IMG/VR virus record: IMGVR_UViG_3300030102_006999
Reading direction: 5' to 3' (one strand)
Length of the DNA: 64,000 nt
Source: an uncultured virus (IMG/VR IMGVR_UViG_3300030102_006999)
Taxonomy: Duplodnaviria; Heunggongvirae; Uroviricota; Caudoviricetes
The stretch's first letter is position 1, and each line of letters starts with the position of its first letter. Shown here piece after piece: positions 4,534 to 54,441 of this stretch. The notes beneath the pieces were generated by a model. That model saw nothing but the letters and a program-made list of their open reading frames with translations, did not search any database and was not told the origin of the DNA. The translations under genes were made by a program, and so were the position numbers.

Positions 4534-5535
4534 ATGTTAAACGTTGATGTTATTATTGGCATCCAGCATGGAGATGAAGGTAAAGGAAAAGTTACACACT
4601 CATTATTAGAATCTGGAAAATATACACACTGTATACGATATAATGGTGGTTGCAATGCCGGTCACACAATATATCACAAAGGCACAAAGTTTGTAACACA
4701 TCATATCCCCGCCGGCGTATTTTTCGGAATCAAGAGTATCATTGGTCCCGGATGTGTCGTTGATGTTGATAAATTCAAAGAAGAGATCAAAATGCTCAAC
4801 GATGGGGGTATAAATACTGAAGGACTGGTATTTATCGCGGAGAATGCCCATATTATCACCGAGCGTCATCGCTGGAGTGACTCTGGAGAAATCAAGATTG
4901 GCACTACTCGAACAGGCAACGGCCCTTGTTATTCATCTAAGTACGCCAGAGAAGGATGGCCGGCCAACACCGTTAATGAGCTTGCGCCTTACCTGATCGA
5001 TATGTACGAAGAATTCTACTACAATCATCCTCAAGCAGAAGTACTGTGTGAGGGCGCGCAGGGTTTTGCACTAGACATTGATTGGGGCGACTATCCTTAT
5101 GTCACTAGTAGTCATTGTACTACAGCCGGCGCCTTACTAAATGGCTTCCCGCCTAGTTCGATTAGGAAAGTTTATGGCGTTGCCAAAGCTTACGAGACCT
5201 ATGTTGGGTCAAAAAAGTTTCAACCTAAAGGTCGAACTTTCGAAGTGATTCAGGAATTAGGAAAAGAGTTTGGTGCAACTACGGGCCGGCCCCGTCAATG
5301 TAACTGGGCAAATTTGGTTCATATGCAAAAGGCCTGTCGCATTAATGGAGTTACTGATTTAATTATTAATAAAGTTGATATTTTGGAGCAGGTCAATCGC
5401 TGGACAGTCTATGTCGGCTCTAAAGACGAAGCAAGCATGATGACATTCATGAATAAAGAGCAATTTTGCGACTACATTGAATACTACTTTGATGGCATTA
5501 AAGTTATTTTTTCTGGAAGTCCAGAGAGAATCTGA
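4534..5535 (+). CDS. purA: adenylosuccinate synthetase (short form)
   Basis: GIQHGDEGKGK, GGCNAGHT, EGAQG, YPYVTSS, EFGATTGRPR, NKVD. Confidence 0.92.
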   Translation: MLNVDVIIGIQHGDEGKGKVTHSLLESGKYTHCIRYNGGCNAGHTIYHKGTKFVTHHIPAGVFFGIKSIIGPGCVVDVDKFKEEIKMLNDGGINTEGLVFIAENAHIITERHRWSDSGEIKIGTTRTGNGPCYSSKYAREGWPANTVNELAPYLIDMYEEFYYNHPQAEVLCEGAQGFALDIDWGDYPYVTSSHCTTAGALLNGFPPSSIRKVYGVAKAYETYVGSKKFQPKGRTFEVIQELGKEFGATTGRPRQCNWANLVHMQKACRINGVTDLIINKVDILEQVNRWTVYVGSKDEASMMTFMNKEQFCDYIEYYFDGIKVIFSGSPERI

Positions 5536-5786
5536 TGCAAGATCGCTACCCTATCTTAGATTTACACGGCGAGAAACATGAAGCAGCAGATTATCTTATT
5601 GAAAAGTTTATAACTGATAATTTTGATAACCTGCCGGTTCTTGTGATTACTGGGTATTCTGACTTTTTTGTTGGCAAGACAAAAGAAATTGTGGAAAAGC
5701 ACAAGCTTTTTTGCTATAAACAACACCATCAGAACAATGGATGTTATGTTGTTTTAAACAGCCCTTGGTTTAATAAGAAGAGATAA
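5535..5786 (+). CDS. stand-alone Smr-domain protein
   Basis: LDLHG near N-terminus, VLVITG, C-terminal NNGCYVV; 83 aa. Confidence 0.8.
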   Translation: MQDRYPILDLHGEKHEAADYLIEKFITDNFDNLPVLVITGYSDFFVGKTKEIVEKHKLFCYKQHHQNNGCYVVLNSPWFNKKR

Positions 5787-5788
5787 AT

Positions 5789-6163
5789 ATGAAAAACCGT
5801 AATATTTTAATTGCAGCATTAGCCCTTGGCTGCTATACACCACAGTCTCCAGATATATATCACACCCAAGTATCTTGTCACTGGAATCAAAGCTTGCAGG
5901 GTTATATCTGGGTACTACAAGCGTGGGTCTACCACCCCGCCCCCGGAGGATACATTACTGACGTCGGCGCGCATCTTTCAGATATGGATCAATCCGCGCT
6001 ATTGACACTGGAAAATCAAGACGGGCCTTATTGGGAGTCTGTTTATACAGAGAACTCTACTGGCTTGGTCTGTGGACGTAGCTATTCTGTTTCTTTCATC
6101 GCTTTCGACGAACTTAGTAACTCCGATGCAGAAACATTTTACTATCAGCAAAATAACCCTTGA
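5789..6163 (+). CDS. putative lipoprotein
   Basis: MKNRNILIAALALGC lipobox-like signal. Confidence 0.6.
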   Translation: MKNRNILIAALALGCYTPQSPDIYHTQVSCHWNQSLQGYIWVLQAWVYHPAPGGYITDVGAHLSDMDQSALLTLENQDGPYWESVYTENSTGLVCGRSYSVSFIAFDELSNSDAETFYYQQNNP

Positions 6164-6188
6164 CACAAAGATTAATACGTGTTATATT
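6160..6188 (+). promoter_or_regulatory. sigma70-type promoter
   Basis: TTGACA-17-TATATT; overlaps upstream TGA stop. Confidence 0.7.
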
Positions 6189-6207
6189 TAATAGATTGGA
6201 GAAATAG

Positions 6208-7230: not shown

Positions 7231-7538
7231 TGAGTGGTTTTGAGATTTTTGAAAACGTAGTTGAAATTCATGCAGAAGAAAATGAAGTTGAGGCTACATC
7301 GAAAGAAGAAAAGATGGTTGAGTATGTTCGGAGCTTGAAGGCTCTTGAAGATGCTATGGAACCATACAAAGAACAAAAGCGAGAACTAAAGCAAGAGTTC
7401 AAAGAGCAAGGCTGGTTGACAGGAGATGAAATCTCCATGACAGTCAAAGCATATCGCATGATGAAATCAGAGAACTTTGACTTTGATGAGTTCACGAAGA
7501 TTTATGAATCTCTTGCTAAACTTACAGGACGTGCATAA
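7227..7538 (+). CDS. GapR/T4 DsbA-like dsDNA-binding protein
   Basis: Helical pattern YVRSLKALEDAM...KRELKQEFKEQG...KAYRMMK resembles the GapR/DUF2312 family. Confidence 0.5.
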   Translation: MMSGFEIFENVVEIHAEENEVEATSKEEKMVEYVRSLKALEDAMEPYKEQKRELKQEFKEQGWLTGDEISMTVKAYRMMKSENFDFDEFTKIYESLAKLTGRA

Positions 7539-9105: not shown

Positions 9106-9106
9106 T

Positions 9107-9430: not shown

Positions 9431-9455
9431 ACTTTGGCGTTTTTAAAAAAACAGA

Positions 9456-10241: not shown

Positions 10242-10655
10242 ATGACATCGTGGATAATATTTGTTTTAGGAACCCTGTGTGGGTATATGTTCAGTCGAGC
10301 ATATACAGTTCTTAGAGGCGCCTCTTTGGACATGAAGATGTTTCGAGTAGCGGAACTATATTGTCTACAGATGCTGACTACTTGTCTGGAAGATAGAGTA
10401 TTTATAAAAGAAGTTAAATACAGGGTAATGCGATCAAATCCAGAGTTTGGAGAAAATAAAGCTAAAATATCTAAAAACGAAGATGAGTACTCTCTTTCTT
10501 TGTGGAAAGATAATGTCATTAGGCATATGATTTCTGTGTATCCTCCACACTACAAAGGAATTATCAGATATAATGATTGGAAGGGTGCAATGGCGTGGTT
10601 GAACTATTTTACACAAAAAAAAGTTGACAACGATTCCATAATCCGTTATAATTAA
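10242..10655 (+). CDS. hypothetical protein with N-terminal TM helix
   Basis: Hydrophobic N-terminus; packs between neighbours. Confidence 0.6.
   Translation: MTSWIIFVLGTLCGYMFSRAYTVLRGASLDMKMFRVAELYCLQMLTTCLEDRVFIKEVKYRVMRSNPEFGENKAKISKNEDEYSLSLWKDNVIRHMISVYPPHYKGIIRYNDWKGAMAWLNYFTQKKVDNDSIIRYN
10624..10652 (+). promoter_or_regulatory. sigma70-type promoter
   Basis: TTGACA-17-TATAAT. Confidence 0.78.
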
Positions 10656-10675: not shown

Positions 10676-10996
10676 ATGAAAGCAGTAGCATGGAAAGAAA
10701 GAAAAACAAACAACAAACTAATGTACATCCTTCAAATTGACGGGATTAAGGGGGTTAGAAGTGAAAATAGGGTCACAAAAGATCTGTCAGGATGGCAAGC
10801 ATATGCCGAAGGGTACGATGCTGTAAATAAAGCCAAGACAATTATATTTAAAAACTATTTCGACACGGAAGACGATTGGAAGAAATGGGCTAGAGAGTTT
10901 CCTTACTCGCTAACAGAGATCGGCAAGAGCGGAAAGGAAAAGCCTTATAAACTGGGTCTTGACTATATTAATTCACCCCGAAGGAGAGCATCGTAA
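10676..10996 (+). CDS. hypothetical protein
   Basis: GGAG RBS; coupled to clpP (TAATG). Confidence 0.7.
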   Translation: MKAVAWKERKTNNKLMYILQIDGIKGVRSENRVTKDLSGWQAYAEGYDAVNKAKTIIFKNYFDTEDDWKKWAREFPYSLTEIGKSGKEKPYKLGLDYINSPRRRAS

Positions 10997-11595
10997 TGTC
11001 TAAAGAAAATCAAACAGAAGAAAATCAAACAGAAGAAAATCAAACAGAAGGGTTGGGGCAAGAAGATCTATTACAAAAAATACCCCAAGAGCCTAGAGCA
11101 ATTGGAATCTTTCAAGACATTGACGAGAAAAAGGCAGAAGAACTTATATACGCTCTCACTTTATACGCGGCAGATAATAAAGATCCGGTAGAGTTTTACA
11201 TTTCCACCAATGGCGGATCTGCAACTGACATGTTTGCTGTATATGATTATGTTCGCACTCTGCGAGATGATATAGATATTTGCACTTATGGTCTTGGGAA
11301 AGTAATGTCTGCTGGCGTTTTGCTTTTAGCGTGCGGTACGCCGGGAAAGAGAAAGATTGGTAAATATTGCAGAGTTATGATTCATTCTGTTATTGGCTTA
11401 AACTCAGGCGCCCTACACGACTTAGAAAATGAAATGCAGGAAATACACAAGATTCAAGAAATATATATTGAGGCTCTGTGTGCAGAAACTAAATTTACAA
11501 AAAAGAAACTAAAAGATTTGATTTCAAAGAATGTCAATGTTTATTTATCGGCAGAGGAGGCAGTAAGTTACGGTATTGCTGACATTATAGTCTAG
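10996..11595 (+). CDS. clpP: ClpP-family protease subunit
   Basis: YISTNGGS, GKVMSAG (Ser), RVMIH (His), YLSAEEAVSYGIAD; the catalytic Asp position reads Asn. Confidence 0.88.
   Translation: MSKENQTEENQTEENQTEGLGQEDLLQKIPQEPRAIGIFQDIDEKKAEELIYALTLYAADNKDPVEFYISTNGGSATDMFAVYDYVRTLRDDIDICTYGLGKVMSAGVLLLACGTPGKRKIGKYCRVMIHSVIGLNSGALHDLENEMQEIHKIQEIYIEALCAETKFTKKKLKDLISKNVNVYLSAEEAVSYGIADIIV
11005..11049 (+). repeat. 3x15-bp tandem repeat (ENQTE x3) at the ClpP N-terminus
   Basis: GAAAATCAAACAGAA x3. Confidence 0.9.
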
Positions 11596-11609
11596 GAGGT
11601 AAATGGATC

Positions 11610-12248
11610 ATGTCTACTATTAAAGGTTTGCACGCCAAAATGATTGCAGAACAAGTAAAGCAAGTAATGGATAAGAAAGGTTATGTTTTCTTTGAGAAGG
11701 GCAAATTTAATGTCAATATAATTGGTGTTAGAAGTTCTTCTAAAAAATCTAATCTATTCGATGATTACATGCTTTTAATCTATAAGAACAAAAAGGATCA
11801 GTGGGAAGTTCAATCTTCAGTTATAACGACGGATCCCGGAGAAAAGTATTTAGTCAACCCTATTAACGATAAAGGTGCGGCTATTTTGGTACCAAACCAA
11901 TATAGGGGAGTCTATCGGCTAGACATACATGCCAGAAGCAATAGCAGATTCGCTCACGAAGCCCTTTGTCAACGTGGAGCACCACTGCAAGTGTGGAGAG
12001 ACAATAATAAAGATAAGGTTCTGGACCACGACCCAGAAACGACAGATGAGGGATGGTTTGGGATTAACATCCATCGCAGTAAATCATCAGGAGAAGCAGA
12101 TTACGTCGGATCTTACTCAGCCGGCTGCCAAGTTTTTAAAAACAGTACAGACTTCAAGATATTTTTAGATGTTATCAAGAGAGCTAAGAGTTTGTACGGA
12201 AATAGTTTTAGCTATACTCTCTTGGAAGAAACTGATTTCGAGGACTAA
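11610..12248 (+). CDS. L,D-transpeptidase/YkuD-like cysteine peptidase, possible lysin
   Basis: GINIH...SAGCQ matches the His...SxGC catalytic motif. Confidence 0.55.
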   Translation: MSTIKGLHAKMIAEQVKQVMDKKGYVFFEKGKFNVNIIGVRSSSKKSNLFDDYMLLIYKNKKDQWEVQSSVITTDPGEKYLVNPINDKGAAILVPNQYRGVYRLDIHARSNSRFAHEALCQRGAPLQVWRDNNKDKVLDHDPETTDEGWFGINIHRSKSSGEADYVGSYSAGCQVFKNSTDFKIFLDVIKRAKSLYGNSFSYTLLEETDFED

Positions 12249-12256
12249 TTAGTATT

Positions 12257-13939
12257 ATGAATGAACTAGAAAACTTAATAGAAGAACACTATTCAAAAAA
12301 ACAAAATAATAAGTTTGCATTTCAAGACCTAATTGATTTGGTTGAATCATTATATGATGACTTCGCCCCGGTGCTAAATGAGAGAAAGTCTCCCCCAAGA
12401 ACTGCACAAAGTATGAACGTCGAAATGTCCTTCATTCCCGAAATCAATGTCAGTGAATTGGGCTGGTCAGATGTCTCTACGAACGAAGCCGGGGAAACCA
12501 TCAAAGGACCACAACGCCGCTTGCTAGAGGATTATTTAAATAATATCGCCGGTAGCACCTTGTCAGAAAAAATCGCCAGCCTAGAGGCCTTTTACGAAGA
12601 TGGTGATCAAACTCTCTTAGACGACGCAGAGAATCGTTCAGAAGTAATCAAGAAGGTCATGTCTTACTTGGTTTTCTATAAAACTTTGACAAAGGTTATT
12701 ACTAACTTCAACGCATCTTCAGCTGGATTTAGTTTTGAATCGTTTCTTGCAACGCTGTTAGATGGAAAACAGATCCCTGCTTCTGGCGCAAATACAATTG
12801 CCGACTTCACTACAGGAGATAATATCCCAATCAGTCTCAAGCTGTACGCCGAGAAATCTCTTCAAGTAGGTGGCAGTTATGTTGCCTTGGTAGATGACTT
12901 GGTTGAACCTAAATTCAATCACCCCGGTATGAGATATGTCGTTTGCACCAAGAACCTGCAAGGTAAAGGCTTGGAGCAAAATGGATCTATTAAATTTTAT
13001 GAGTTTGATATTGATATAAACAATGTTGCTAATATTATTGGCGTAAGCAGCGACAAATCAGCAAAATGTATTAGACTTCCTCGTGCAATTGAGACGGCTG
13101 ATGCTGATTACGACATTAACGCTACACTGCCATCAGCTAGAAATATGCCTAGTATCGAAGATCTGAAGAAGATTTATGAAGACAATGTTCGAAAAAACTT
13201 GAAGGATAATGGGTCAACTATCTCTGAAGAAGAACTTAGGGCCCTTTTGGATAAAATTGGCTGGGGCACAAAAGAGGATGTATTCAAGCCCGCCAATCCT
13301 GACCGTTTTGGTGGTGTGGAACAAGGCGTTGTTTTCGGAATCTCCAAGACAGATAGAACAAAGTTGGGTAACCTTCTTATGCCCGATACCCAAGCCGAGA
13401 ATGACGTTAGAAAAGCTATTGGCTTTAATGACAAAAGAGCGATTATTTCAGTCTTTACAAAAGCTAATGATGATCTTGTTTCTCAATTCACAAGAGCAAA
13501 ACTTAGTGGAGAAAGGGGAAAGCAATTGGCAGCTATGGCCAAGTCTGGAGAGTTTTTGTCCCCGGAAGATTCAGTGAAGTTATACAATACATTGTCTGAA
13601 GATATGAAAAGGGTTGCTCTCAAAAACTCTCTAGGATATTTAGAAACTTACCAGTGGCACCTAAACAGAACACAGGCTACAAACACTTCTGCACCACTAA
13701 ACGCAGAATACCAAGGCGAAATCCAAGTAGGTGCTCAAGCCGTAGTAAAGTTGTTGAACGATGTTAGAGACCTACTAAACCAACAGGTATTTCAGATTTT
13801 CAGTTCTTTGAAATCTTTATCTGATAATCTTAACTCTTATTTTGCTGGCGGTCTCGCTGATGATAGACGAGCAGCTGGCGCAATTGATGACGCGCAACAG
13901 ATCGAAGCAAACACTATTGAAATAAAAGATCAAAAATAA
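12257..13939 (+). CDS. 560-aa protein with PD-(D/E)xK-like nuclease motif
   Basis: AGFSFESFL...IADF...ISLKLY; ATG lies 5 nt after ACTAATTA. Confidence 0.5.
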   Translation: MNELENLIEEHYSKKQNNKFAFQDLIDLVESLYDDFAPVLNERKSPPRTAQSMNVEMSFIPEINVSELGWSDVSTNEAGETIKGPQRRLLEDYLNNIAGSTLSEKIASLEAFYEDGDQTLLDDAENRSEVIKKVMSYLVFYKTLTKVITNFNASSAGFSFESFLATLLDGKQIPASGANTIADFTTGDNIPISLKLYAEKSLQVGGSYVALVDDLVEPKFNHPGMRYVVCTKNLQGKGLEQNGSIKFYEFDIDINNVANIIGVSSDKSAKCIRLPRAIETADADYDINATLPSARNMPSIEDLKKIYEDNVRKNLKDNGSTISEEELRALLDKIGWGTKEDVFKPANPDRFGGVEQGVVFGISKTDRTKLGNLLMPDTQAENDVRKAIGFNDKRAIISVFTKANDDLVSQFTRAKLSGERGKQLAAMAKSGEFLSPEDSVKLYNTLSEDMKRVALKNSLGYLETYQWHLNRTQATNTSAPLNAEYQGEIQVGAQAVVKLLNDVRDLLNQQVFQIFSSLKSLSDNLNSYFAGGLADDRRAAGAIDDAQQIEANTIEIKDQK

Positions 13940-13942
13940 TAC

Positions 13943-13971
13943 TTGACACATAGTACAAATGTGGTTATAAT
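13943..13971 (+). promoter_or_regulatory. sigma70-type promoter for groEL
   Basis: TTGACA-17-TATAAT. Confidence 0.8.
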
Positions 13972-14001
13972 ATAATATAGTCAAAAAGAAAGAGGTGTAA
14001 T

Positions 14002-15573
14002 TTGACAAAGCATTATGATTCTGGTTCTAGCATGAATCAAAAGATTTTATCTGGTGTTAATATTCTTGCGGATAATGTAGCATCTACACTAGGCCCTCGC
14101 GGCCGAAACGTGATCCTGCAAGAGAAAGGTAAACGACCTATTATCACTAAGGACGGAGTAACTGTGGCGGAGTTTGTGGATCTTGAAGATCCATTCGAGA
14201 ACGCCGGAGTTCAGATTATTAAACAAGCAGCAGCACAAACTAATCTCGATGCTGGTGATGGAACAACAACTTCCACAGTATTATCTCGCGCCATCTTAAA
14301 CGAGGCTCAAAAGTATATTTCATCCGGTATCCCACCAATTGAACTTCAGCGAGGCATTGAACTAGCCGTTGATGCAATCACTGAAGAGCTAAAGTCAGTC
14401 GCTCGCCCTGTGATGTCCGAAGAGGATATCAGCCACGTAGCAACCATTTCAGCTAATAACGACAAGACCATTGGATTCTTGATTGGCAAGGCCGTCGCAG
14501 CCGCTGGCAAGGATGGTGCAATTACTGTAGAAGAAGCTCGGTCTATGAAAACAAGTCTTGACCTAGTAGAAGGTTTCCGAATGGATGCTGGCTATGCTGC
14601 TTCTGCTTTTATCACCGACGAGCGCCGGCGCGCCGCAACTTATGATGACCCTCTCTTGCTTGTGACGGATGAGAAGATCGACCGCGTTCAAGATATTATG
14701 CACATCTTAGAACTTGCTGCTAGAGAGTCTCGCCCTCTTATCTTTATTGCAACAGAGATTGAAGGTCAAGCATTGGCCGCTATGATTATGAACGCTATCA
14801 AAGGAACTCTAAAAGTAGCAGCTATCAAGGCTCCACGATACGGCGAAGAGCGTAAGAATATCTTGCAAGACTTGGCAACTTCCACTGGAGCGACTTTTAT
14901 CTCTCGCTCTCAAGGTAAGAAGCTCCAAGACGTAAAACTCGTTGACTTGGGAACTTCAGACCGAATTGATATCACCCGATACCAAACTACGATTGTTGGA
15001 GGTAACGGAGATCAAGACGAGATCGAAGTACGATTAGACAACCTGCGAGAAGATTTAACTAGAGAAGATAATCTAAACGAGTGTGAAAAGATTCAAGACC
15101 GAATCGCACGTTTGTCTAGCGGTATCGCAATCATTCGCGTAGGTGCCTCAACTGAAGTAGAAATGATTGAAAAGAAGCACAGGATCGAAGATGCCCTTGA
15201 AGCAGTGAAGTCGGCACAATTAGAAGGCATCGTACCCGGTGGTGGCTGTGCTCTCTTGTCAGCAGTAAGAGTGTTAGATAATGTTTCTTGTCCAAATAGC
15301 GACCAAGTATTGGGTGTAGAGATTATCAGGCAAGCAGCCTCGGCACCTCTTCGTCAGATGGCAATCAACGCCGGCGAATCTCCAGATATTATTTGTGCCA
15401 AAGTATGTGAAACTGATTCCGATACAGGATATGATTTTGTAACAGGACAAGTAGTTAACATGTGGGATAAAGGTATCCTTGACCCCGTTAAAGTTACTCG
15501 CACAGCTTTGCAGAACGCTGCTTCTGTTTCTGGCACATTATTAACTACAAATTGTGCAGTCATTCAAAAGTGA
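14002..15573 (+). CDS. groEL: chaperonin GroEL (TTG start)
   Basis: TLGPRGRNV, ITKDGVTVA, AGDGTTT, RIEDAL, GIVPGGG, ILDPVKV; GAGGTG RBS. Confidence 0.96.
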   Translation: MTKHYDSGSSMNQKILSGVNILADNVASTLGPRGRNVILQEKGKRPIITKDGVTVAEFVDLEDPFENAGVQIIKQAAAQTNLDAGDGTTTSTVLSRAILNEAQKYISSGIPPIELQRGIELAVDAITEELKSVARPVMSEEDISHVATISANNDKTIGFLIGKAVAAAGKDGAITVEEARSMKTSLDLVEGFRMDAGYAASAFITDERRRAATYDDPLLLVTDEKIDRVQDIMHILELAARESRPLIFIATEIEGQALAAMIMNAIKGTLKVAAIKAPRYGEERKNILQDLATSTGATFISRSQGKKLQDVKLVDLGTSDRIDITRYQTTIVGGNGDQDEIEVRLDNLREDLTREDNLNECEKIQDRIARLSSGIAIIRVGASTEVEMIEKKHRIEDALEAVKSAQLEGIVPGGGCALLSAVRVLDNVSCPNSDQVLGVEIIRQAASAPLRQMAINAGESPDIICAKVCETDSDTGYDFVTGQVVNMWDKGILDPVKVTRTALQNAASVSGTLLTTNCAVIQK

Positions 15574-15638
15574 GCTACTACTTAGGAAGTGATATGAGAA
15601 ACTTAACTTTCATAAATCAGCAGGAGGAGGTGGCTTTT

Positions 15639-15917
15639 ATGTCTGAAGATGATGTAAAGATGACTGACATTGTTGAGATTGACGGTAAGCTCGATAGGCT
15701 AGTAGACAATCTCGATGTGATGCGCCAGTGCCAATTTAGAATGACCGAGGACATTTCTAAGATTAAAGAGGCCGTGTACAACCCAGACCAAGGTTTATAT
15801 GCTAGATTAAAAGCAATTGAACAATGGAAAGAACAAACTTCAAAAGTTGTGTGGGTGATAATGACTAGTGTTATTGGCTTGGCATGTGCAACAATGTGGC
15901 AAACTTTTTTTAACTAG
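15639..15917 (+). CDS. coiled-coil protein with C-terminal TM helix (XhlA/holin-like)
   Basis: GGAGGAGG RBS; RLKAIEQW followed by hydrophobic tail. Confidence 0.55.
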   Translation: MSEDDVKMTDIVEIDGKLDRLVDNLDVMRQCQFRMTEDISKIKEAVYNPDQGLYARLKAIEQWKEQTSKVVWVIMTSVIGLACATMWQTFFN

Positions 15918-27220: not shown

Positions 27221-27342
27221 TGGAGCATTTAACTAACTGTCATGGCGAGTGGACGATACTTGCCGCCTCAATGGGCTATTTCTCGTTTGTTATTTTGTGG
27301 ATAAGATTAAGATGGCAGACGTTCAAAGGAGATAGAGGATGA
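27220..27342 (+). CDS. small membrane peptide, 40 aa (not in ORF track)
   Basis: MEHLTNCHGEWTILAASMGYFSFVILWIRLRW...; TAATG coupling. Confidence 0.55.
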   Translation: MEHLTNCHGEWTILAASMGYFSFVILWIRLRWQTFKGDRG

Positions 27343-27482
27343 AAAAGAAAGCAAAAAAGCGAAATATCGTAGCCCTACAGATGCAACACCGACACAAAAA
27401 TGGAGGGTCTGCGGGCTTTCACAGTAAGAAAGGTTACTCTCGAAAGGAGAAACATAAAAAATGCGTTTTGACATTCTCTTGA
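27339..27482 (+). CDS. ArfA-like basic peptide, 47 aa (not in ORF track)
   Basis: MKKKAKKRNIVALQMQHRHKNGGSAGFHSKKGYSRKEKHKKCVLTFS; AAGGAG/GAGG RBS. Confidence 0.55.
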   Translation: MKKKAKKRNIVALQMQHRHKNGGSAGFHSKKGYSRKEKHKKCVLTFS

Positions 27483-27522
27483 CAAAATAACTGTTGACTT
27501 ACCACAAAATAATCTGTATAAT
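27468..27522 (+). promoter_or_regulatory. compound promoter repeat copy 3
   Basis: hexamers at 27468, 27479, 27494; TATAAT 27517. Confidence 0.85.
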
Positions 27523-33084: not shown

Positions 33085-33405
33085 ATGAAGCATTTTGTAG
33101 TCCAGCGAGAAAACCATACTATCCAGCAACGCGATATCGACCTCATATTTGGCCCTGTAGAGGCCCACGAGGATATTTTGGTAGTAGACCATGATGACCT
33201 TGCTGTGATGGCTGTAGAGGCCGGTCTGTTCCCTTCTAGGGGCCAATCAAGGCGCAACGGACTAGGTGGCCCAGCCCCTCACGGTCTGCATCAGATTGGC
33301 ACCAAAAAGAAGCGATTTTGGGTCTGGAATCCAATTGCGGGCGATGAAAAGGTAACTTTAAAGCCTTCTTTTGATAGAACTCAAGGCTGGTTTCGGGGAA
33401 GATAG
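33085..33405 (+). CDS. S4-like RNA-binding protein (TyrRS C-terminal-like)
   Basis: DLAVMAVEAGLFPSRGQSRR...IGTKKKRF. Confidence 0.5.
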   Translation: MKHFVVQRENHTIQQRDIDLIFGPVEAHEDILVVDHDDLAVMAVEAGLFPSRGQSRRNGLGGPAPHGLHQIGTKKKRFWVWNPIAGDEKVTLKPSFDRTQGWFRGR

Positions 33406-36538: not shown

Positions 36539-36564
36539 TACCCGCGTGTGATAGCAAAGGTTGA

Positions 36565-36590
36565 AGGGGGCGAAAGCCCCCTCCCTTTTC
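36565..36590 (+). terminator. GNRA-tetraloop hairpin terminator
   Basis: AGGGGGC-GAAA-GCCCCCT then CCCTTTTC. Confidence 0.7.
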
Positions 36591-36592
36591 TC

Positions 36593-36647
36593 TTGACATT
36601 TTTTTGACAACTTTTTTGTAGACTTTTGTGCTGCCAGCGTGTATAAT
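36593..36647 (+). promoter_or_regulatory. compound promoter repeat copy 12
   Basis: 36593, 36604, TAGACT 36619, TATAAT 36642. Confidence 0.85.
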
Positions 36648-36672
36648 TATATCATAACTTGGAGCTATTCAC

Positions 36673-47556: not shown

Positions 47557-47695
47557 TGAGGTTCCAGAACCGGAACCAGAAAAAATTAAAATTCCTATAA
47601 AAGATTACTTGACTTTTGCTGTATCTAGTGTTATAATGTTAGTATTCTTTGTTGCTCTATTGTGGCTAGCTCTATCAATGAATGGTTATTTATAA
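47531..47695 (+). CDS. small membrane protein, 54 aa (not in ORF track)
   Basis: ...DYLTFAVSSVIMLVFFVALLWLALSMNGYL*. Confidence 0.5.
   Translation: MTLRIVKNDEVPEPEPEKIKIPIKDYLTFAVSSVIMLVFFVALLWLALSMNGYL
47609..47637 (+). promoter_or_regulatory. sigma70-type promoter upstream of the Cys-rich peptide and tmRNA
   Basis: TTGACT-17-TATAAT. Confidence 0.7.
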
Positions 47696-47753: not shown

Positions 47754-47828
47754 ATGAAATTTACTGAAGAAACATGTAAGTGTTGCGATTGCTGCGAATG
47801 TGATTGTGACAAGTGTAAGTGCTGTTAA
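47754..47828 (+). CDS. metallothionein-like 24-aa peptide with 10 Cys (not in ORF track)
   Basis: AAGGAG RBS; MKFTEETCKCCDCCECDCDKCKCC*. Confidence 0.65.
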   Translation: MKFTEETCKCCDCCECDCDKCKCC

Positions 47829-47836
47829 ACTTACCG

Positions 47837-48180
<344 letters not shown>

Positions 48181-48219: not shown

Positions 48220-49521
48220 ATGAGCATAAAAGTATTTATAAAAGCAAAAAAACAAATTAAAAAGTTAATTTGCCCACCGGCAACCCAAGATTTAGAACTT
48301 AACACAAAAAATAGAAATTCTGCAATTAAATCTGAACATATTCAGTATGGTCCACTAAACTTAAACGACGAATCTTACTGGGTCAGGGTAGCAGAACACT
48401 GGAAGACAACTCCAGAAGTAGCTAAGGAATCAAATTGTTCTAATTGTGCAGCTTTTGACATCTCTCCTAGAATGGAAGAATGTATGCCCGGATCTTTACA
48501 GGAAGATGGTAGGCTAGGTTATTGTTGGATGCATCACTTCAAATGCCACTCTGCTCGTACTTGCTATACTTGGGCAGCAGGTGGACCAATCAATAAGGAT
48601 GCTGTTTCAGCTGAATGGCAGGAGAGAAACATGAAAAACTTACAAGAATCTGAAGATAGAATTAGAAAACTCGAAGACATGGTTATAGATGCCGCCTTGA
48701 AAGGAAGACATAATCCCACTGCTATAGGCGAACTAACGAAAATGTCCAAGAGAGGCCAATATGATATGGAAAGACTAAAGAAAAAAGTTAAAGATGCGAA
48801 AAAATCTAAAACTAATGAAGAATTGGAATCCGTCATTGACGAGAAAAAGAAAAAAAGAAAAAAGAAGAAATCTAAAAAGAAAAAAGGTGACCGCTGTACA
48901 AGGATAGCTAAGAGAAAATATGATGTTTGGCCTTCAGCTTACGCTTCTGGGGCCGTCGTCCGATGTCGACAGGGTAAAATTTGGAAAGGTCTAAGTGAAC
49001 AAGAGTTCGATTCAATCGTAGCTGAAGTTGTCGCTGAAACTCTTGAAGAAGCCCTAGTACAAAAAATAACCAAAGCTTTAAAAGATGAAGGTGGCGCTGC
49101 AGGTATGAAAGCTCTCATGGATCATACTAAAGCCAAAAAAGCGGAAATTGAAAAAGCGATTAAAAACACAGAAAAGTTTGTAAAGCACACCAATGGCGAT
49201 ATCATTCTAAAAGATAAAAGTTTGGACGAAAAAAAAAAGAAAAAGTCTAAAAAGAAAAAAGCTGGTACCGAATCTAGCAAAGAGTCGTCTTTGAGAGATT
49301 GGTTTGGCAGAAAAGGCGCAAAAGGTAAAAAAGGTGGATGGGTAGACTGCAACACTTGTCGTAAAGACAAGAAAACTGGTCGTAAGACTTGTAAGTCTTG
49401 TGGCCGGCAAAAAGGTGAAAAAAGATCTAAATATCCATCTTGCAGACCTACGCCGGGAGCTTGCGGAGAAAAGGGTAGAGGAAAAAGCTGGGGCAAAAAA
49501 TCAGCTAAAGGAAAAAAATAA
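48220..49521 (+). CDS. Lys-rich multidomain Cys-containing protein (putative virion)
   Basis: CSNC..CWMHHFKC, WPSAYASGAVVRCR, SLRDWF..WVDC; ATG 5 nt after ACTATTTA. Confidence 0.65.
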   Translation: MSIKVFIKAKKQIKKLICPPATQDLELNTKNRNSAIKSEHIQYGPLNLNDESYWVRVAEHWKTTPEVAKESNCSNCAAFDISPRMEECMPGSLQEDGRLGYCWMHHFKCHSARTCYTWAAGGPINKDAVSAEWQERNMKNLQESEDRIRKLEDMVIDAALKGRHNPTAIGELTKMSKRGQYDMERLKKKVKDAKKSKTNEELESVIDEKKKKRKKKKSKKKKGDRCTRIAKRKYDVWPSAYASGAVVRCRQGKIWKGLSEQEFDSIVAEVVAETLEEALVQKITKALKDEGGAAGMKALMDHTKAKKAEIEKAIKNTEKFVKHTNGDIILKDKSLDEKKKKKSKKKKAGTESSKESSLRDWFGRKGAKGKKGGWVDCNTCRKDKKTGRKTCKSCGRQKGEKRSKYPSCRPTPGACGEKGRGKSWGKKSAKGKK

Positions 49522-50433: not shown

Positions 50434-50451
50434 ATAAAGTGAGGAAAAAAA

Positions 50452-50802: not shown

Positions 50803-50819
50803 GAGCTATTTTGTACAAT

Positions 50820-51468: not shown

Positions 51469-51504
51469 AAATAGATAAACTATTTAGTATAAAGGAGAAG
51501 AACA

Positions 51505-51636: not shown

Positions 51637-51644
51637 AACTATTG

Positions 51645-51673
51645 CACCCTTTGGCAAAAAATGCCAAAGGGTG
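51645..51673. terminator. perfect 12-bp stem hairpin
   Basis: CACCCTTTGGCA-AAAAA-TGCCAAAGGGTG. Confidence 0.65.
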
Positions 51674-51771
51674 TTGTCATAATATATTTAAAAAATAATA
51701 AACTCTATTTTTGAAATTGTTTGAGACTAATTAGAACAAAATATTTATGATTTCAAAAAGGATTTATAAAC

Positions 51772-54357
51772 ATGAAAAAATGGAATACTTTTTTACAAGA
51801 ACAAAAAAGTGAAATAATCACGGAGTTCAATAGAAAAGACGAAGAGTCTATTATGGCAGTCGAAGATCGATTTTCTGTTGCTTTTGAGATTGAACTCGAA
51901 ACAGAAGGTGACCCATCCAATAGCGGCGACTGGGAATATGACATGGAAGACGCCATGGACAGGGCGCGCCGAGAAAGTGCACTGAATTATATTCACGATA
52001 CTGACGAATGGTTTCGGCAAGGTGCACGAGATTATGATGTAGAATACTACATAGAAAATCTACCAGAGGATGGTACCGAGTTTTTCGAGTGGTATTATGA
52101 TAATATTAAGCCAATGACTTATGCTAACCTCGATATGATAAGATTAGCAATTGCTTTGGACACAGAATATTCAGATGATTATAGCGAAGCACGAGAAGAA
52201 ATAGATAAAGTTTGGATGGGAGTAATGGAAGATCCCATGAAACTTTTGAGAGCGATAAATCAAAATGGTGCTAGAAGAAACGAACTTCAGGATCTTTTAG
52301 GGTGGAGTGACCAACAAATGACCCTGCCTTTTGAAAAAGAAGGTGGAAAAGCTTTCCACCCCGGATATGAATCTATTGTTAAAGATCCTAAAATCATGAT
52401 GAAAATATTAGAATATTTCGTTGGAGATATCGGAAGCTTGCCGAATGAAAAAGAAATCTTTTCCAAAGCAAAGCATCCTAAAGCAATCATAGATATAGAA
52501 AGTCTTTTTCTATTATATGGCGCTGATTGGGATAAAATTATGGATATCTCAAACAATGTAGTAGAAGAACATATCACAGACTCATTAGGAGGTACATTCG
52601 AAGATACCTTCAATAATCTCCCGACTTTCACTAGGGCTGGCACATGGACAGAGCGCGTTTCCGACAAGATGTTTGCATATGTGGAATCTGCCCTTGATGA
52701 ATTAGTTGATTCACAAATTTTAGAGTTCGAAAATGATCCTGTGGAATATTTGGATCAAATGGGCATTGAAGATTATTTCGATGAATGGAGTTTCCGAGAT
52801 GACTATGAGATGGAATACGGCAGAGGGGGCGACTGCGATGTGGATTCTCTCGAAAGCCTTATGTATGACTATTTTCCAAGATTTATGAGGAAATATGACA
52901 GTACTCTAGACTTTACAGAAGATGGATCTTTAACATGTGGTATAGAATTTAAACAAGACAATCCTCCTTACATGACAGGATTAGAGGAAGCCATCGAATA
53001 TCTTACAGATTTTTTTGATGAATATGATGACCAAGAATATTTCCAGATGACGGAAGCCACCGGCCTTCACACTAACATTGGGTGGCTTGGAGAAGATGGC
53101 GAACCTGTCGATAATTATAATCTTTTCAAAGGTTTGATGTTCATTAATCACACTTACGCAACAAAGGGTGTTGGATTTCCTAGTAGAGAATATAGCCAGT
53201 GGTCAGGGGATTTAAAAGAGCCAGCCATTAGAAATATCAAAGCATTTATTATGAAACTTCAAGACGAATCCGAGCATGAACGTGTTTTAACAAAGAAAAG
53301 TTTTATGAAAAAATATCTTTCACGGAACTTTGATGAGCTTGGAGAAATATTATCAAACCGTGTATTGGACGCTGCTCGGCAACAGGGTTCAAAACGTATT
53401 GGTTTTAATGTAAATTATACTCCAAGTAGAAATTATATTGAGTATAGATACCCGGGTGAAGATGATCCAAATCTAGAAAATATGACAAAGGCGCTGAAGT
53501 ATTATGCTTTTGTAACAAGAGCGGCGGGCGAACCTGACTATAAAAAGAAAGAGTACATTAAAGATCTTATTGGATTTATTAATAACTTAGAAGGTGAAAA
53601 ACTTAGAGTCAGTGACTTAAAATTTCTTAAAGGGCAGGATAAGCTTAAAAAAGGAGATCTACTTCTAAAATCTGGATATAGTAATAGTTTATTCCGAGCA
53701 ATTGAAAAGGCATACGAACAATCATTGGAATCTACTCGTGATAATAAAGCAATGGGTGAGCTAGACATAGGAAGAGCATCTTATTCCTATTCTAACGACG
53801 GCATATGGACTTACGCTAGAGCAAAGGATATCCCGGCTTCATTCTTTTCTAGAATTATGAGAGATCAATATCCTGTATATTATCGAGGTCTCCAAGGAGG
53901 AAAAGTTGTCCTTGACACAATTAAAACTAGCGAAGTGTCCGAGGGTAGAAGAGTCGTAGTCAAAAGGGAATATGTAGATCCCAAAATATTTCAAGAAGAG
54001 ATGAGTTCAGGCTTGTACGAAAAGACTAAGCATTTTGGAGAGAAAGCTCTTGGTGCTTATACAGATCTTATTAGACTAATGGTTAAAAATAAAGATTCTT
54101 ATTTAGATTTAGCAAAAGCATTTCATAAAGTTGTAGAAGATATAACACCAGATAATGAGACAAATTCCTTAGAACTTTATAATATGGTGTGGAAAGAAAA
54201 AGAAAGTGAGAATACCAAAAGTACCAAAAAAATGAGAAAAGGTAGCGAAGAGGCCGAAAATGAAGCCGAAGCGGAGAAACTTACTGATTGGCTCATTAAT
54301 GACATATTGGGTGAATCTGTTCTTTATGGTAAGTTCGAGATAAATAAAACTACTTAA
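51772..54357 (+). CDS. putative amidoligase (COOH-NH2 ligase type 2) with large acidic insert
   Basis: AFEIELE, EDGSL..GIEF, TGLHTNIG, YIEYRYPG. Confidence 0.7.
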   Translation: MKKWNTFLQEQKSEIITEFNRKDEESIMAVEDRFSVAFEIELETEGDPSNSGDWEYDMEDAMDRARRESALNYIHDTDEWFRQGARDYDVEYYIENLPEDGTEFFEWYYDNIKPMTYANLDMIRLAIALDTEYSDDYSEAREEIDKVWMGVMEDPMKLLRAINQNGARRNELQDLLGWSDQQMTLPFEKEGGKAFHPGYESIVKDPKIMMKILEYFVGDIGSLPNEKEIFSKAKHPKAIIDIESLFLLYGADWDKIMDISNNVVEEHITDSLGGTFEDTFNNLPTFTRAGTWTERVSDKMFAYVESALDELVDSQILEFENDPVEYLDQMGIEDYFDEWSFRDDYEMEYGRGGDCDVDSLESLMYDYFPRFMRKYDSTLDFTEDGSLTCGIEFKQDNPPYMTGLEEAIEYLTDFFDEYDDQEYFQMTEATGLHTNIGWLGEDGEPVDNYNLFKGLMFINHTYATKGVGFPSREYSQWSGDLKEPAIRNIKAFIMKLQDESEHERVLTKKSFMKKYLSRNFDELGEILSNRVLDAARQQGSKRIGFNVNYTPSRNYIEYRYPGEDDPNLENMTKALKYYAFVTRAAGEPDYKKKEYIKDLIGFINNLEGEKLRVSDLKFLKGQDKLKKGDLLLKSGYSNSLFRAIEKAYEQSLESTRDNKAMGELDIGRASYSYSNDGIWTYARAKDIPASFFSRIMRDQYPVYYRGLQGGKVVLDTIKTSEVSEGRRVVVKREYVDPKIFQEEMSSGLYEKTKHFGEKALGAYTDLIRLMVKNKDSYLDLAKAFHKVVEDITPDNETNSLELYNMVWKEKESENTKSTKKMRKGSEEAENEAEAEKLTDWLINDILGESVLYGKFEINKTT

Positions 54358-54365
54358 GTGCAAGT

Positions 54366-54441
54366 GGGGGTGTAGCTCAACTGGGAGAGCGTCAGATTTG
54401 CATTCTGAAGGTCGCAGGTTCGATCCCTGTCACCTCCACCA
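54366..54441 (+). tRNA. tRNA-Ala(UGC), CCA encoded
   Basis: GGGGGTG/CACCTCC acceptor with G3:U70; TCAGA-TTTGCAT-TCTGA anticodon arm; GGTTCGATCCC T-arm; 76 nt. Confidence 0.97.

What the first reader, a model, noticed from the sequence alone, without database searches (positions are those of the whole stretch)
5535..54441. Dispersed phage-encoded ribosome-rescue / translation quality-control toolkit
Seen: a stand-alone Smr protein (5535), ClpP (10996), GroEL (14002), an ArfA-like peptide (27339), an S4-like protein (33085), tmRNA (47837), and tRNA-Ala(UGC) (54366), the only tRNA seen in the window. Knowledge: SmrB/MutS2 Smr domains act at collided ribosomes. tmRNA tags products for ClpXP and ArfA is its back-up. 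Bacterial RQC uses RqcH, the S4-like RqcP/Hsp15 and tRNA-Ala(UGC) for Ala-tailing. Inference: the phage may carry parts of all three rescue routes to keep ribosomes cycling under host mRNase/tRNase defences. The genes are not clustered, and the ArfA and S4 calls are motif-level only.
Basis: inference. Interest (0 to 1): 0.78.

Follow-up and report, generated by a model that had tools for sequence, protein, structure and literature searches.

The report
Marine T4-like phage tmRNA and unlinked helpers
This stretch of an uncultured ocean T4-like phage carries a real ribosome-rescue RNA (tmRNA), a chaperonin and an odd ClpP-type protease, but the other proposed rescue parts are unrelated or only look-alikes, so there is no coordinated rescue toolkit.

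Summary
The window is about one third of an uncultured ~190-kb marine T4-like phage. It is collinear with a complete IMG/VR contig, G001.

**Confirmed**
- A full-length tmRNA (Rfam 123.6 bits).
- tRNA-Ala(UGC).
- GroEL.

- The "ClpP" keeps Ser and His but has Asn for the catalytic Asp. It is not the head protease.
- The Smr protein has the Smr fold and the DxH motif. It is a bare 83-aa domain coupled to DNA-metabolism genes.
- The "S4-like" protein resembles the TyrRS C-terminal alpha-L domain only weakly. It does not resemble Hsp15/RqcP.
- The "ArfA-like" peptide is a conserved 47-aa gene. It fails every ArfA test except an 8-residue motif and sits nearer DUF7230.

**Co-occurrence in relatives**
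- tmRNA: 4 of 5.
- ClpP and GroEL: 4 of 4.
- S4-like protein: 3 of 8.
- Smr: 2 of 5.
- Peptide: 0 of 5.
- tRNA-Ala: 0 of 4.
- SmpB, RqcH, ArfA, RF-1/ArfB and Pth: 0 of 5 each.

The members lie behind separate sigma-70-type promoters.

**Verdict:** one SmpB-dependent rescue component of a known kind, plus independently inherited early auxiliary genes. This scan reached the same verdict before on other DNA (note e1-5875820).

The parts
47837..48178 (+). One-piece tmRNA. Tag ANNNNQFKQIALAA, G3:U70 acceptor, encoded CCA.
   Evidence: ARAGORN. Rfam 123.6 bits, model 1-374. Homologues in G001-G004 are 55-71% identical, with intact tags and compensatory stem changes.
47609..47637 (+). Near-consensus sigma-70-type promoter (TTGACT-17-TATAAT, with TG) about 200 nt upstream of the tmRNA. 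A 24-aa Cys-rich ORF (47754-47828) lies between them.
   Evidence: ORF translation.
54366..54441 (+). tRNA-Ala(UGC), the only tRNA of the window. Its acceptor stem plus ACCA is the same as that of the tmRNA.
   Evidence: Absent from G001, G002, G003 and G005.
14002..15573 (+). GroEL chaperonin with its own promoter at 13943-13971.
   Evidence: TIGR02348 586.2 bits. PHROG 5725. Promoter. 54-76% identical in 4 of 4 relatives.
10996..11595 (+). ClpP-family serine peptidase with Ser-His-Asn and a divergent acidic N-terminus. It is not the prohead protease.
   Evidence: Pfam 116.4 bits. NCBIfam models all below cut-off. Alignment with E. coli ClpP. A separate T4 gp21-type protease is present in 4 of 5 relatives.
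12257..13939 (+). Conserved 560-aa virus-only protein of unknown function, lying between the ClpP-like gene and GroEL.
   Evidence: Homologue in 65 of 150 loci. Atlas neighbours are all viral hypothetical proteins. No P-loop motif.
5535..5786 (+). Bare 83-aa Smr-fold domain. The DxH motif is kept and GxG is replaced by G-Y-S. Its start overlaps the stop of the PurA-like gene upstream.
   Evidence: Synteny in 9 of 15 loci behind Pol III alpha, and in 7 of 15 directly behind the PurA-like gene.
33085..33405 (+). 106-aa phage protein (phrog_11006, KVP40.0283-like) with a weak TyrRS C-terminal (alpha-L/S4-type) likeness in residues about 27-87.
27339..27482 (+). 47-aa very basic peptide with the conserved core NGGSAG-H-KGYSRKxKHK. 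It is DUF7230-like. It has a Shine-Dalgarno sequence and lies just upstream of the promoter at 27494-27522.
4477..4505 (+). Sigma-70-type promoter ahead of the PurA-like/Smr gene pair.
10624..10652 (+). Sigma-70-type promoter ahead of the unit that holds the ClpP-like gene.

Best explanation
The window is the early region (replication, nucleotide metabolism and auxiliary genes) of an uncultured marine T4-like phage of about 190 kb. Only one of the seven features is a ribosome-rescue component.

**tmRNA.** It is a full-length, one-piece tmRNA that is old in this lineage.
- The phage has no SmpB. I infer that the RNA is transcribed early from a host-type promoter, charged by host AlaRS through G3:U70, and delivered by host SmpB and EF-Tu to ribosomes stalled on broken mRNAs.
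- It would add a 13-14-residue tag that keeps the C-terminal (A/R)LAA ending, which host ClpXP-type proteases recognise.
- The likely benefit is to keep ribosomes cycling while mRNAs are being degraded during infection.

**The other six features** are separately inherited auxiliary genes.
- GroEL and a ClpP-family peptidase with Ser-His-Asn form a conserved block with an unknown 560-aa protein. This block probably serves protein folding and turnover.
- The bare Smr domain most likely nicks nucleic acid within the DNA-metabolism module.
- The TyrRS-C-like protein is probably a small RNA- or tRNA-binding protein.
- tRNA-Ala(UGC) belongs to the lineage's variable set of tRNAs that read A-ending codons.
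- The 47-aa peptide is a DUF7230-like basic peptide of unknown role.

**Shown versus inferred.** Shown: the identities, the conservation, the absence of partner genes in relatives, and the separate promoters. Inferred: use of host SmpB, the fate of tagged proteins, and the substrates of the Smr and ClpP-like proteins.
For: **What the phage is**
- 65 of 111 window ORFs have collinear homologues in the complete 190-kb contig G001.
- T4 gp21 and gp23 families are found in 4 of 5 relatives, at other places in the genome.

**tmRNA**
- Rfam 123.6 bits.
- Present in 4 of 5 relatives, and in 3 of 3 that are at least 90% complete. Present over cut-off in 6 of 30 more distant or fragmentary records.
- The seven phage tmRNAs are 55-71% identical to the window's. 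All have open tags beginning AN(N/D)N and ending LAA, and they show paired changes in the acceptor and T stems.
- A promoter lies at 47609-47637.
- A 246-nt contig 96% identical to the tmRNA body is present in one metatranscriptome. This is a weak hint only.

**Partner genes absent from relatives (0 of 5 each)**
- SmpB, ArfA, NFACT_N, RF-1, Pth.

**Co-occurrence of the other members**
- Smr in 2 of 5.
- Peptide in 0 of 5.
- tRNA-Ala in 0 of 4.
- S4-like protein in 3 of 8.
- ClpP and GroEL in 4 of 4.

**Transcription and codon use**
- Ten TTGAC-N17-19-TATAAT sites, all on the + strand, against 0.29 expected by chance. Separate sites precede the Smr pair, the ClpP unit, GroEL and the tmRNA.
- GCA and GCT are each 33% of Ala codons. 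The relatives' tRNAs likewise read A-ending codons: Arg-UCU, Leu-UAA, Thr-UGU.

**Smr synteny**
- The Smr gene lies behind Pol III alpha in 9 of 15 loci and directly behind the PurA-like gene in 7 of 15.
Against: - The host is unknown, so use of host SmpB, AlaRS and ClpX is untested.
- All members sit behind early-type promoters. They could therefore act at the same time even without being one system.
- tmRNA, the ClpP-like gene and GroEL do travel together in the close relatives, so a functional link among those three cannot be excluded.
- The Smr domain keeps the catalytic DxH motif that SmrB needs (passages of bioRxiv 10.1101/2021.08.16.456513), so an RNA target is possible.
- The peptide shares the YxRKxKH channel-binding motif of ArfA. 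One distant viral relative (L182) hits the ArfA model at E 0.0036.
- Most relatives beyond G001-G005 are fragments, so absences there are weak evidence.
Confidence: 0.7

Rival explanations
1. First reader's reading. The seven genes form a coordinated phage toolkit that covers trans-translation, ArfA-type release and RqcH-type Ala-tailing, and it counters host mRNase and tRNase defences.
For: All seven features exist. All lie on one strand in an early region rich in sigma-70-type promoters. Smr, alpha-L and ArfA-tail likenesses are each weakly present.
Against: - Members do not co-occur: peptide 0 of 5, tRNA-Ala 0 of 4, Smr 2 of 5, S4-like 3 of 8.
- RqcH, SmpB, ArfA, RF and Pth are each found in 0 of 5 relatives.
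- The S4-like protein is not Hsp15-like: hhalign probability 0.05%.
- The ArfA membership tests fail.
- The members lie in separate transcription units spread over 49 kb.
Confidence: 0.05
2. Private tagging-and-degradation circuit. The phage tmRNA marks stalled products with a lineage-specific tag (ANNNN-x-F...LAA). The phage ClpP-like protease, working with a host unfoldase, is the enzyme that removes them.
For: tmRNA and the ClpP-like gene are both lineage-conserved: tmRNA in 4 of 5, ClpP in 4 of 4. The front half of the tag is conserved among the phage tmRNAs. An earlier scan note (e1-6039595) raised a similar idea on another phage; I did not check it.
Against: - The ClpP-like protein has Asn for the catalytic Asp.
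- It lacks the conserved N-terminal segment seen in E. coli ClpP.
- All ClpP equivalog models are below cut-off.
- No ClpX- or ClpA-like ATPase was found among 112 window ORFs.
- The two genes are 37 kb apart and have separate promoters.
Confidence: 0.1
3. The 47-aa basic peptide is a phage-encoded alternative rescue factor, or a blocker of the mRNA channel. It would work like ArfA or ArfT by placing its KKGYSRKxKHK tail in the empty mRNA channel.
For: - It is small, very basic and strongly conserved.
- Its YxRKxKH motif aligns with E. coli ArfA residues 38-50.
- The distant relative L182 carries KKGRGSYSRKIKHK and hits Pfam ArfA at E 0.0036.
- ArfT was itself recognised by such a tail despite low overall similarity (passages of PMC6299226).
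Against: - No ArfA hit at E <= 10 for the window peptide.
- The family profile finds no ArfA chain in the PDB.
- hhalign probability is 0.6%.
- 10 of 19 phage members lean to DUF7230, against 1 of 19 to ArfA.
- It is absent from 5 of 5 relatives that have tmRNA and from bacterial genomes.
- Basic low-complexity motifs recur by chance.
Confidence: 0.1
4. The Smr protein is a SmrB/Cue2-type mRNA endonuclease that acts at collided ribosomes and feeds substrates to the tmRNA.
For: It has the Smr fold and an invariant DxH motif. That motif is essential for SmrB activity (passages of bioRxiv 10.1101/2021.08.16.456513).
Against: - The protein starts 8 residues before DxH, so it has no N-terminal hook. 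An SMR-only SmrB construct does not bind ribosomes (same preprint, passage).
- GxG is replaced by G-Y-S.
- The gene is fixed in the Pol III / PurA-like / UvdE / dUTPase module.
- It is present in only 2 of 5 relatives and is missing from two that have tmRNA, G002 and G004.
Confidence: 0.12

Closest known systems
Phage-encoded tmRNAs: huge phages in Al-Shayeb et al. 2020 (PMC7162821, passages read), and cultured phages with annotated tmRNA/ssrA such as Stenotrophomonas phages Marzo and vB_SmaM_Bhz51
   Same: A full-length tmRNA gene carried by a large lytic phage and proposed to rescue stalled ribosomes during infection.
   Different: No SmpB accompanies it in this lineage (0 of 5), whereas the paper reports SmpB in huge phages. 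This lineage is marine, T4-like and about 170-190 kb, and its tags follow the pattern ANNNN(H/Q)F...(A/R)LAA. Only the 3' 30-50 nt match cultured-phage records by blastn.
E. coli ArfA (Pfam PF03889) and Francisella ArfT (PMC6299226, passages read)
   Same: A small basic protein. [quoted passage not shown]
   Different: No HMM or profile support. No counterpart of the segment that contacts RF2 could be shown. The peptide has its own stop codon, and no hairpin was found in a simple terminator scan.
Pfam DUF7230 (PF23876), function unknown
   Same: 10 of 19 phage peptides in alignment A5 give weak hits (best E 0.0024). 10 of the 30 nearest Atlas clusters are DUF7230.
   Different: All hits shown individually are below the 27-bit cut-off, and the window peptide itself gives no hit. 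No paper mentions the family (0 papers).
Smr domains: MutS2 Smr (4och, 2zqe), E. coli YdaL/SmrA (3qd7) and SmrB
   Same: The beta-alpha-beta-alpha-beta-beta fold (TM 0.54-0.71) and the LDLHG (DxH) motif.
   Different: It is a bare 83-aa domain with no N-terminal hook, KOW domain or MutS part. The GxG loop is altered. The gene is tied to phage DNA-metabolism genes.
TyrRS C-terminal domain (Pfam PF22421; 1jh3; E. coli TyrRS residues 349-424); cultured-phage homologue KVP40.0283
   Same: A helix-helix-hairpin arrangement and a PSRGQ(A/S)RK-like motif (hhalign E 0.0018).
Bacterial ClpP (TIGR00493) and phage chaperonins. The virioplankton GroEL paper (PMC5649160) is named in an earlier scan note and was not read here.
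   Same: The S14 peptidase fold family with catalytic Ser and His. A full GroEL above the equivalog cut-off.
   Different: The ClpP-like protein has Asp to Asn, a divergent N-terminus and no phage unfoldase. It is also not the capsid protease, because a T4 gp21-type protease exists separately.

Membership tests
tmRNA (Rfam RF00023) | Covariance-model score above the gathering cut-off over the full model | tested here: met
   123.6 bits vs 47, model positions 1-374.
tmRNA (Rfam RF00023) | tRNA-Ala-like acceptor with G3:U70 and a CCA end | tested here: met
   5' GGGGGUG pairs with 3' CACCUCC, followed by ACCA; read directly.
tmRNA (Rfam RF00023) | Internal tag reading frame that starts at an Ala codon, ends at a stop, and ends in a hydrophobic LAA-type degron | tested here: met
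   ANNNNQFKQIALAA*. 7 of 7 phage homologues keep an open tag ending in LAA.
Autonomous trans-translation system (tmRNA + SmpB) | An SmpB gene | tested here: not met
   PF01668 found in 0 of 5 relatives, with 10 of 14 control genomes positive. No SmpB among 112 window ORFs. The rest of this phage's own genome was not available.
ArfA (Pfam PF03889) | HMM match at or above the cut-off | tested here: not met
   No hit at E <= 10 for the window peptide. The E. coli ArfA control scored E 9e-26 in the same run.
ArfA (Pfam PF03889) | Profile-level similarity to ArfA | tested here: not met
   hhalign probability 0.6%, with only 13 columns aligned. The family profile finds no ArfA chain in the PDB at E <= 10.
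ArfA (Pfam PF03889) | Basic C-terminal tail motif (KGKGS-Y-x-RK-x-KH) that binds the mRNA channel | tested here: inconclusive
   KKG-YSRKEKHKK is present and invariant in the family, but the motif is short and of low complexity.
ArfA (Pfam PF03889) | Recruits RF2 to nonstop ribosomes | not testable with these tools
   Needs biochemistry or cryo-EM.
RqcP/Hsp15 S4 domain (Pfam PF01479) in the RqcH pathway | S4-domain HMM match or profile similarity to Hsp15 | tested here: not met
   No Pfam hit for P0002. 1 of 150 family members hits S4, at E 0.059. hhalign probability vs E. coli Hsp15 is 0.05% and vs uS4 is 0.06%.
RqcP/Hsp15 S4 domain (Pfam PF01479) in the RqcH pathway | The partner RqcH (NFACT_N) is present | tested here: not met
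   0 of 5 relatives. None among 112 window ORFs.
TyrRS C-terminal domain (Pfam PF22421) | Sequence or fold match to the alpha-L domain | tested here: inconclusive
Smr domain (Pfam PF01713) | HMM match at or above the cut-off | tested here: not met
   17.8 bits vs 25.7, E 0.0036.
Smr domain (Pfam PF01713) | Smr fold | tested here: met
   The nine best Foldseek rows are Smr domains or MutS2, with TM 0.54-0.71 and probability 0.98-1.00, although E is only 0.004-0.07.
Smr domain (Pfam PF01713) | Catalytic DxH motif | tested here: met
   L8-D9-L10-H11-G12 is invariant in 9 of 9 sequences.
SmrB-type collision nuclease | N-terminal hook that binds uS2 and is required for ribosome binding | tested here: not met
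   The protein has only 8 residues before DxH. The requirement itself is taken from passages of bioRxiv 10.1101/2021.08.16.456513.
ClpP (TIGR00493; Pfam PF00574) | Family HMM | tested here: met
   Pfam 116.4 bits vs 20.2.
ClpP (TIGR00493; Pfam PF00574) | Equivalog-level score and a Ser-His-Asp triad | tested here: not met
   TIGR00493 88 bits vs 308.6. Ser and His are kept, and Asp is replaced by Asn, in 7 of 7 phage homologues.
GroEL (TIGR02348) | Equivalog HMM above the cut-off | tested here: met
   586.2 vs 582.1 bits.

The most novel reading that the evidence does not exclude
The conserved 47-aa basic peptide (27339-27482) belongs to a phage-borne, DUF7230-like family. [quoted passage not shown] They would act either as a release-factor-dependent back-up rescue factor beside the phage tmRNA, or as a phage tool that occupies or blocks nonstop ribosomes. 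If so, it would be a virus-encoded alternative rescue factor and would give DUF7230 a function.
Probability: 0.1. Interest if true: 0.7.

Novelty: new member of a known kind. Interest (0 to 1): 0.3.

Why it matters
The result trims an attractive "three-route rescue toolkit" down to what the evidence supports. What remains is a SmpB-dependent tmRNA that is stably inherited in a lineage of abundant marine T4-like phages, together with a conserved ClpP-like/unknown/GroEL block.

This is useful for annotating ocean viromes. It also warns against reading Smr, S4-like or ArfA-like motifs in phages as ribosome quality control without co-occurrence evidence.

Three small leads are cheap to test at the bench:
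- the DUF7230-like peptide with an ArfA-type tail;
- the stand-alone TyrRS-C-like protein family, which has 201 representative clusters;
- the Ser-His-Asn ClpP variant.

Tried and rejected
**Searches that found nothing**
- An exact search for the window's tmRNA tag region in IMG/VR found nothing, so the source contig itself was not retrieved. No whole genome is held for the window.
- The phage collection holds no close relative by blastn. There is no tblastn hit there for the Smr protein.
- Profile searches of the PDB with the Smr, S4-like and peptide families gave only chance-level rows.
- The Atlas gave nothing informative for the 560-aa protein.

**Host inference failed**
- The peptide profile found no relative in 185,579 bacterial genomes.
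- A 27-nt stretch of the tRNA-Ala had no exact match there.
- psbA was found in 0 of 5 relatives.

**Readings rejected**
- ClpP as the capsid-maturation protease. A T4 gp21-type protease (4 of 5) and gp23 (4 of 5) lie elsewhere in the relatives.
- The tmRNA as a leftover integration-site fragment. It covers the full model, keeps an open tag, and is conserved with compensatory changes in a T4-like lytic lineage.
- Linkage of the peptide to tmRNA. 0 of 8 viral contigs that carry distant peptide relatives have a tmRNA above cut-off.
- tRNA adjacency of the S4-like gene as a general rule. It is seen in G002 and G003 but not in the window, nor in two cultured phages.

**Other limits**
- RNA runs X18 and X19 laid no contigs. 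This is no proof of absence.
- The complex-prediction job was not used, because no binding claim is made.
- bioRxiv supplements and figures could not be seen, and no supplements were opened for any paper. The ArfA/ArfT alignment figure of PMC6299226 could therefore not be compared letter by letter.

Full report
**What the window is**

Nearly all long ORFs lie on the + strand. G+C is 36-43%. Pfam and PHROG scans of 112 ORFs show several classes of gene:
- replication and nucleotide-metabolism genes: DnaE-type Pol III alpha, a short PurA-like synthetase, a Dam methylase, a dUTPase and an IMPDH/GMP-reductase-like enzyme;
- a UvdE endonuclease and a MoxR-type ATPase with its VWA partner;
- many small ORFs of unknown function.

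No whole genome is held for the window. An exact search for the tmRNA tag region did not find the source contig in IMG/VR.

Relatives were fetched through three proteins. The complete 190,479-bp contig G001 is collinear with the window, and 65 of 111 window ORFs have tblastn matches in it. The relatives carry the T4 gp21 prohead protease (4 of 5) and the gp23 capsid protein (4 of 5) elsewhere in their genomes. None has psbA (0 of 5).

The window is therefore about one third of a marine T4-like phage of roughly 190 kb, with an unknown host that is probably not a cyanobacterium. Near-identical DNA is present in marine metagenomes: 6 runs from four of the seven studies listed hold at least half of the sampled words.

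**The seven features, one by one**

*tmRNA.* ARAGORN and Rfam agree on a full-length one-piece tmRNA at 47837-48178 (123.6 bits, model positions 1-374).
- It has a G3:U70 acceptor stem and an encoded CCA.
- The tag is ANNNNQFKQIALAA.
- Homologues occur in G001-G004. That is 4 of 5 records, and 3 of 3 records that are at least 90% complete.
- In a wider set, mostly fragments and partly other phage types, 6 of 30 records have a tmRNA over the cut-off.
- The seven phage tmRNAs that I aligned are 55-71% identical to the window's. All keep open tags beginning AN(N/D)N and ending LAA.
- They show paired changes in the stems. Acceptor position 6 is U-A in some and C-G in others. The T stem reads GCGGG/CCCGC, GGGGG/CCCCC, GUGGG/CCCAC or CCGGG/CCCGG.

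This is a functional gene, not an integration-site remnant.

*tRNA-Ala(UGC).* It is real and is the only tRNA in the window.

*GroEL.* It passes the equivalog cut-off (586.2 vs 582.1 bits).

*ClpP.* It is a member of the family by Pfam (116.4 bits) but lies below every NCBIfam ClpP cut-off.
- Aligned with E. coli ClpP, 7 of 7 phage homologues keep the catalytic Ser and His but have Asn in place of Asp.
- They carry a divergent acidic N-terminus where E. coli ClpP has its conserved N-terminal segment.
- The relatives have a separate gp21-type protease, so this is not the capsid-maturation protease.

*Smr.* The Pfam match is below threshold (17.8 vs 25.7 bits).
- The nine family members share an invariant LDLHG.
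- The AF2 model (pLDDT 80.7) has Smr domains or MutS2 as its nine best PDB rows (TM 0.54-0.71, E 0.004-0.07).
- I accept the fold and the DxH motif.
- The protein is a bare domain that starts 8 residues before DxH, and it has G-Y-S where Smr domains have GxG.

*S4-like protein.* It has no Pfam match and belongs to phrog_11006, of unknown function. Homologues occur in Vibrio and Pseudoalteromonas phages, one of them labelled as like KVP40.0283.
- The model (pLDDT 82.9) gives no significant fold match.
- A profile search found 201 representative clusters.
- Of 150 members scanned, 13 weakly hit Pfam SYY_C-terminal (best E 0.0034) and 1 hit S4 (E 0.059).
- hhalign of the family against E. coli TyrRS aligns the PSRGQARK region (E 0.0018, probability 14.6%). 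Against Hsp15 and uS4 it gives probabilities of 0.05% and 0.06%.
- "S4-like" therefore holds only loosely, and the nearest relative is not RqcP/Hsp15.

*ArfA-like peptide.* The 47-aa ORF has a Shine-Dalgarno sequence and 15 homologue clusters at 71-94% identity. They share an invariant core, NGGSAG-H-KGYSRK-KHK, so it is a real gene.
- It gives no ArfA hit at E <= 10.
- Its profile finds no ArfA chain in the PDB.
- hhalign against E. coli ArfA aligns only 13 columns around YxRKxKH (probability 0.6%).
- Among 19 phage peptides, 10 weakly hit DUF7230 and 1 (L182) hits ArfA at E 0.0036. The E. coli ArfA control scored 9e-26 in the same run.
- The Atlas also places it near DUF7230 clusters (10 of 30).

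**Co-occurrence**

| Feature | Present in relatives |
|---|---|
| tmRNA | 4 of 5 |
| ClpP-like | 4 of 4 read in full |
| GroEL | 4 of 4 read in full |
| S4-like | 3 of 8 (G001-G003; not G004, G005, G018, G026, G027) |
| Smr | 2 of 5 (G001, G003) |
| 47-aa peptide | 0 of 5 |
| tRNA-Ala | 0 of 4 read in full |
| SmpB | 0 of 5 |
| ArfA | 0 of 5 |
| NFACT_N (RqcH) | 0 of 5 |
| RF-1 domain (RF1/RF2/ArfB) | 0 of 5 |
| Pth | 0 of 5 |

- G004, G018 and G027 have a tmRNA but lack the S4-like gene.
- The relatives carry other tRNAs instead of tRNA-Ala: Arg-UCU, Met, Lys, Ser, Leu-UAA, Thr-UGU and Ile.
- In each of the five family searches that found nothing, the expected bacterial control genomes were positive.
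- The distant peptide relatives sit on contigs without a tmRNA above cut-off (0 of 8).

**Transcription units and context**

The pattern TTGAC-N17-19-TATAAT occurs 10 times, always on the + strand, against 0.29 expected by chance.
- Separate sites precede the PurA-like/Smr pair (4477), the ClpP unit (10624), GroEL (13943) and the tmRNA (47609).
- One site lies just after the peptide gene (27494).
- The members are therefore early-type genes in different units spread over 49 kb.

The Smr gene is fixed in the DNA-metabolism module. Of 15 viral loci with a relative, 9 have Pol III alpha upstream. Seven have the PurA-like gene ending a few bases before the Smr start, and one has UvdE in that position.

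The ClpP-like gene, a virus-only 560-aa protein and GroEL form a block. Among 150 loci, 70 have the ClpP homologue, 65 the 560-aa protein and 52 GroEL. Note that 68 of those loci were fetched by ClpP similarity, so these counts are not independent.

GCA and GCT each make up 33% of Ala codons. The codons read by the relatives' tRNAs (AGA, TTA, ACA) are likewise among the commonest of their codon families in the window's genes. tRNA-Ala(UGC) fits ordinary codon supply.

**Most likely mechanism**

The tmRNA is made early from a host-type promoter. I infer that host AlaRS charges it and that host SmpB and EF-Tu deliver it to nonstop ribosomes. There it would add a tag whose (A/R)LAA end is the kind recognised by ClpXP-type proteases (from general knowledge of the ssrA tag).

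One metatranscriptome holds exact contigs of neighbouring genes, and a 246-nt contig 96% identical to the tmRNA body. Contigs cannot prove transcription, so this is only a hint.

The remaining genes are best read as independent auxiliaries, as set out under Best explanation. I put 0.7 on this overall reading.

**Comparison with what is known, and novelty**

Phage tmRNAs are already described. Huge phages carry tmRNA together with SmpB and release factors (PMC7162821, passages read). Several cultured phages have an annotated tmRNA.

From the SmrB preprint I read passages on the DxH and GxG motifs, the N-terminal hook, and the SMR-only construct that does not bind ribosomes. From the ArfT paper I read passages on the KGKGS tail and on how ArfT was recognised despite low similarity. 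A search for DUF7230 found 0 papers.

I did not check that record itself.

The finding is a new member of known kinds. The boldest reading that survives is that the DUF7230-like peptide uses its ArfA-type tail on the ribosome, which I put at about 0.1.

**Limits**

- The rest of this phage's own genome was not seen.
- The host is unknown.
- Most distant relatives are fragments.

Noticed in passing
window 4534-5535: A short (333-aa) adenylosuccinate-synthetase-family gene. It hits PHROG 1211, which is named for the PurZ-type enzyme, at E 5e-68. It scores 270.7 bits on PurA (cut-off 402) and 119.9 bits on PurZ (cut-off 300). It is conserved in G001 and G002. Whether it makes normal adenylosuccinate or the 2-aminoadenine (Z-base) precursor is open.
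   Followed up: partly
window 473-47637 (10 sites): Ten TTGAC-N17-19-TATAAT promoter-like sites, all on the + strand, against 0.29 expected by chance. This is a clear set of host-type early promoters that divides the region into units.
   Followed up: partly
window 47754-47828: A 24-codon ORF with 10 cysteines (MKFTEETCKCCDCCECDCDKCKCC). It has a Shine-Dalgarno sequence and ends 8 nt before the tmRNA 5' end, downstream of the tmRNA promoter.
   Followed up: no
window 47837-48178 and 54366-54441: The tmRNA and the tRNA-Ala have the same 7-bp acceptor stem and 3' end (GGGGGUG / CACCUCC-ACCA). Relatives without the tRNA-Ala have either this stem or the C6-G variant.
   Followed up: partly
window 48220-49521: A 433-aa protein just after the tmRNA. 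Its first ~140 residues are very widely conserved in marine viral contigs: 586 tblastn-confirmed stretches, with the best 80 mostly 63-80% identical over that part. It has no Pfam family and hits phrog_727, of unknown function.
   Followed up: no
window 10996-15573: A conserved block of a ClpP-like gene (Ser-His-Asn), a virus-only 560-aa protein without a P-loop, and GroEL. A 121-aa ORF at 15552-15917 is 91% identical in G001.
   Followed up: partly
L149 9268-10312; L150 10001-10392: In two relatives the TyrRS-C-like gene lies beside tRNA genes. In L149, tRNA-Leu and tRNA-Ser end about 550 nt upstream of it. In L150, tRNA-Lys starts 11 nt downstream. This is not so in the window, nor in two cultured phages.
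   Followed up: partly
L183 9478-11330 (contig of 362,810 bp): A distant relative of the 47-aa peptide sits between a cREC_REC 'cyclic-phosphate processing receiver' domain gene (E 4e-23) and a conserved ~380-aa unknown gene. An array of five tRNAs lies about 6 kb upstream. This is a possible RNA-repair neighbourhood.
   Followed up: no
window 35390-37965: A MoxR-type AAA ATPase followed by a DUF2201 metallopeptidase-like/VWA protein. The pair is conserved at 74-84% identity in G001.
   Followed up: no
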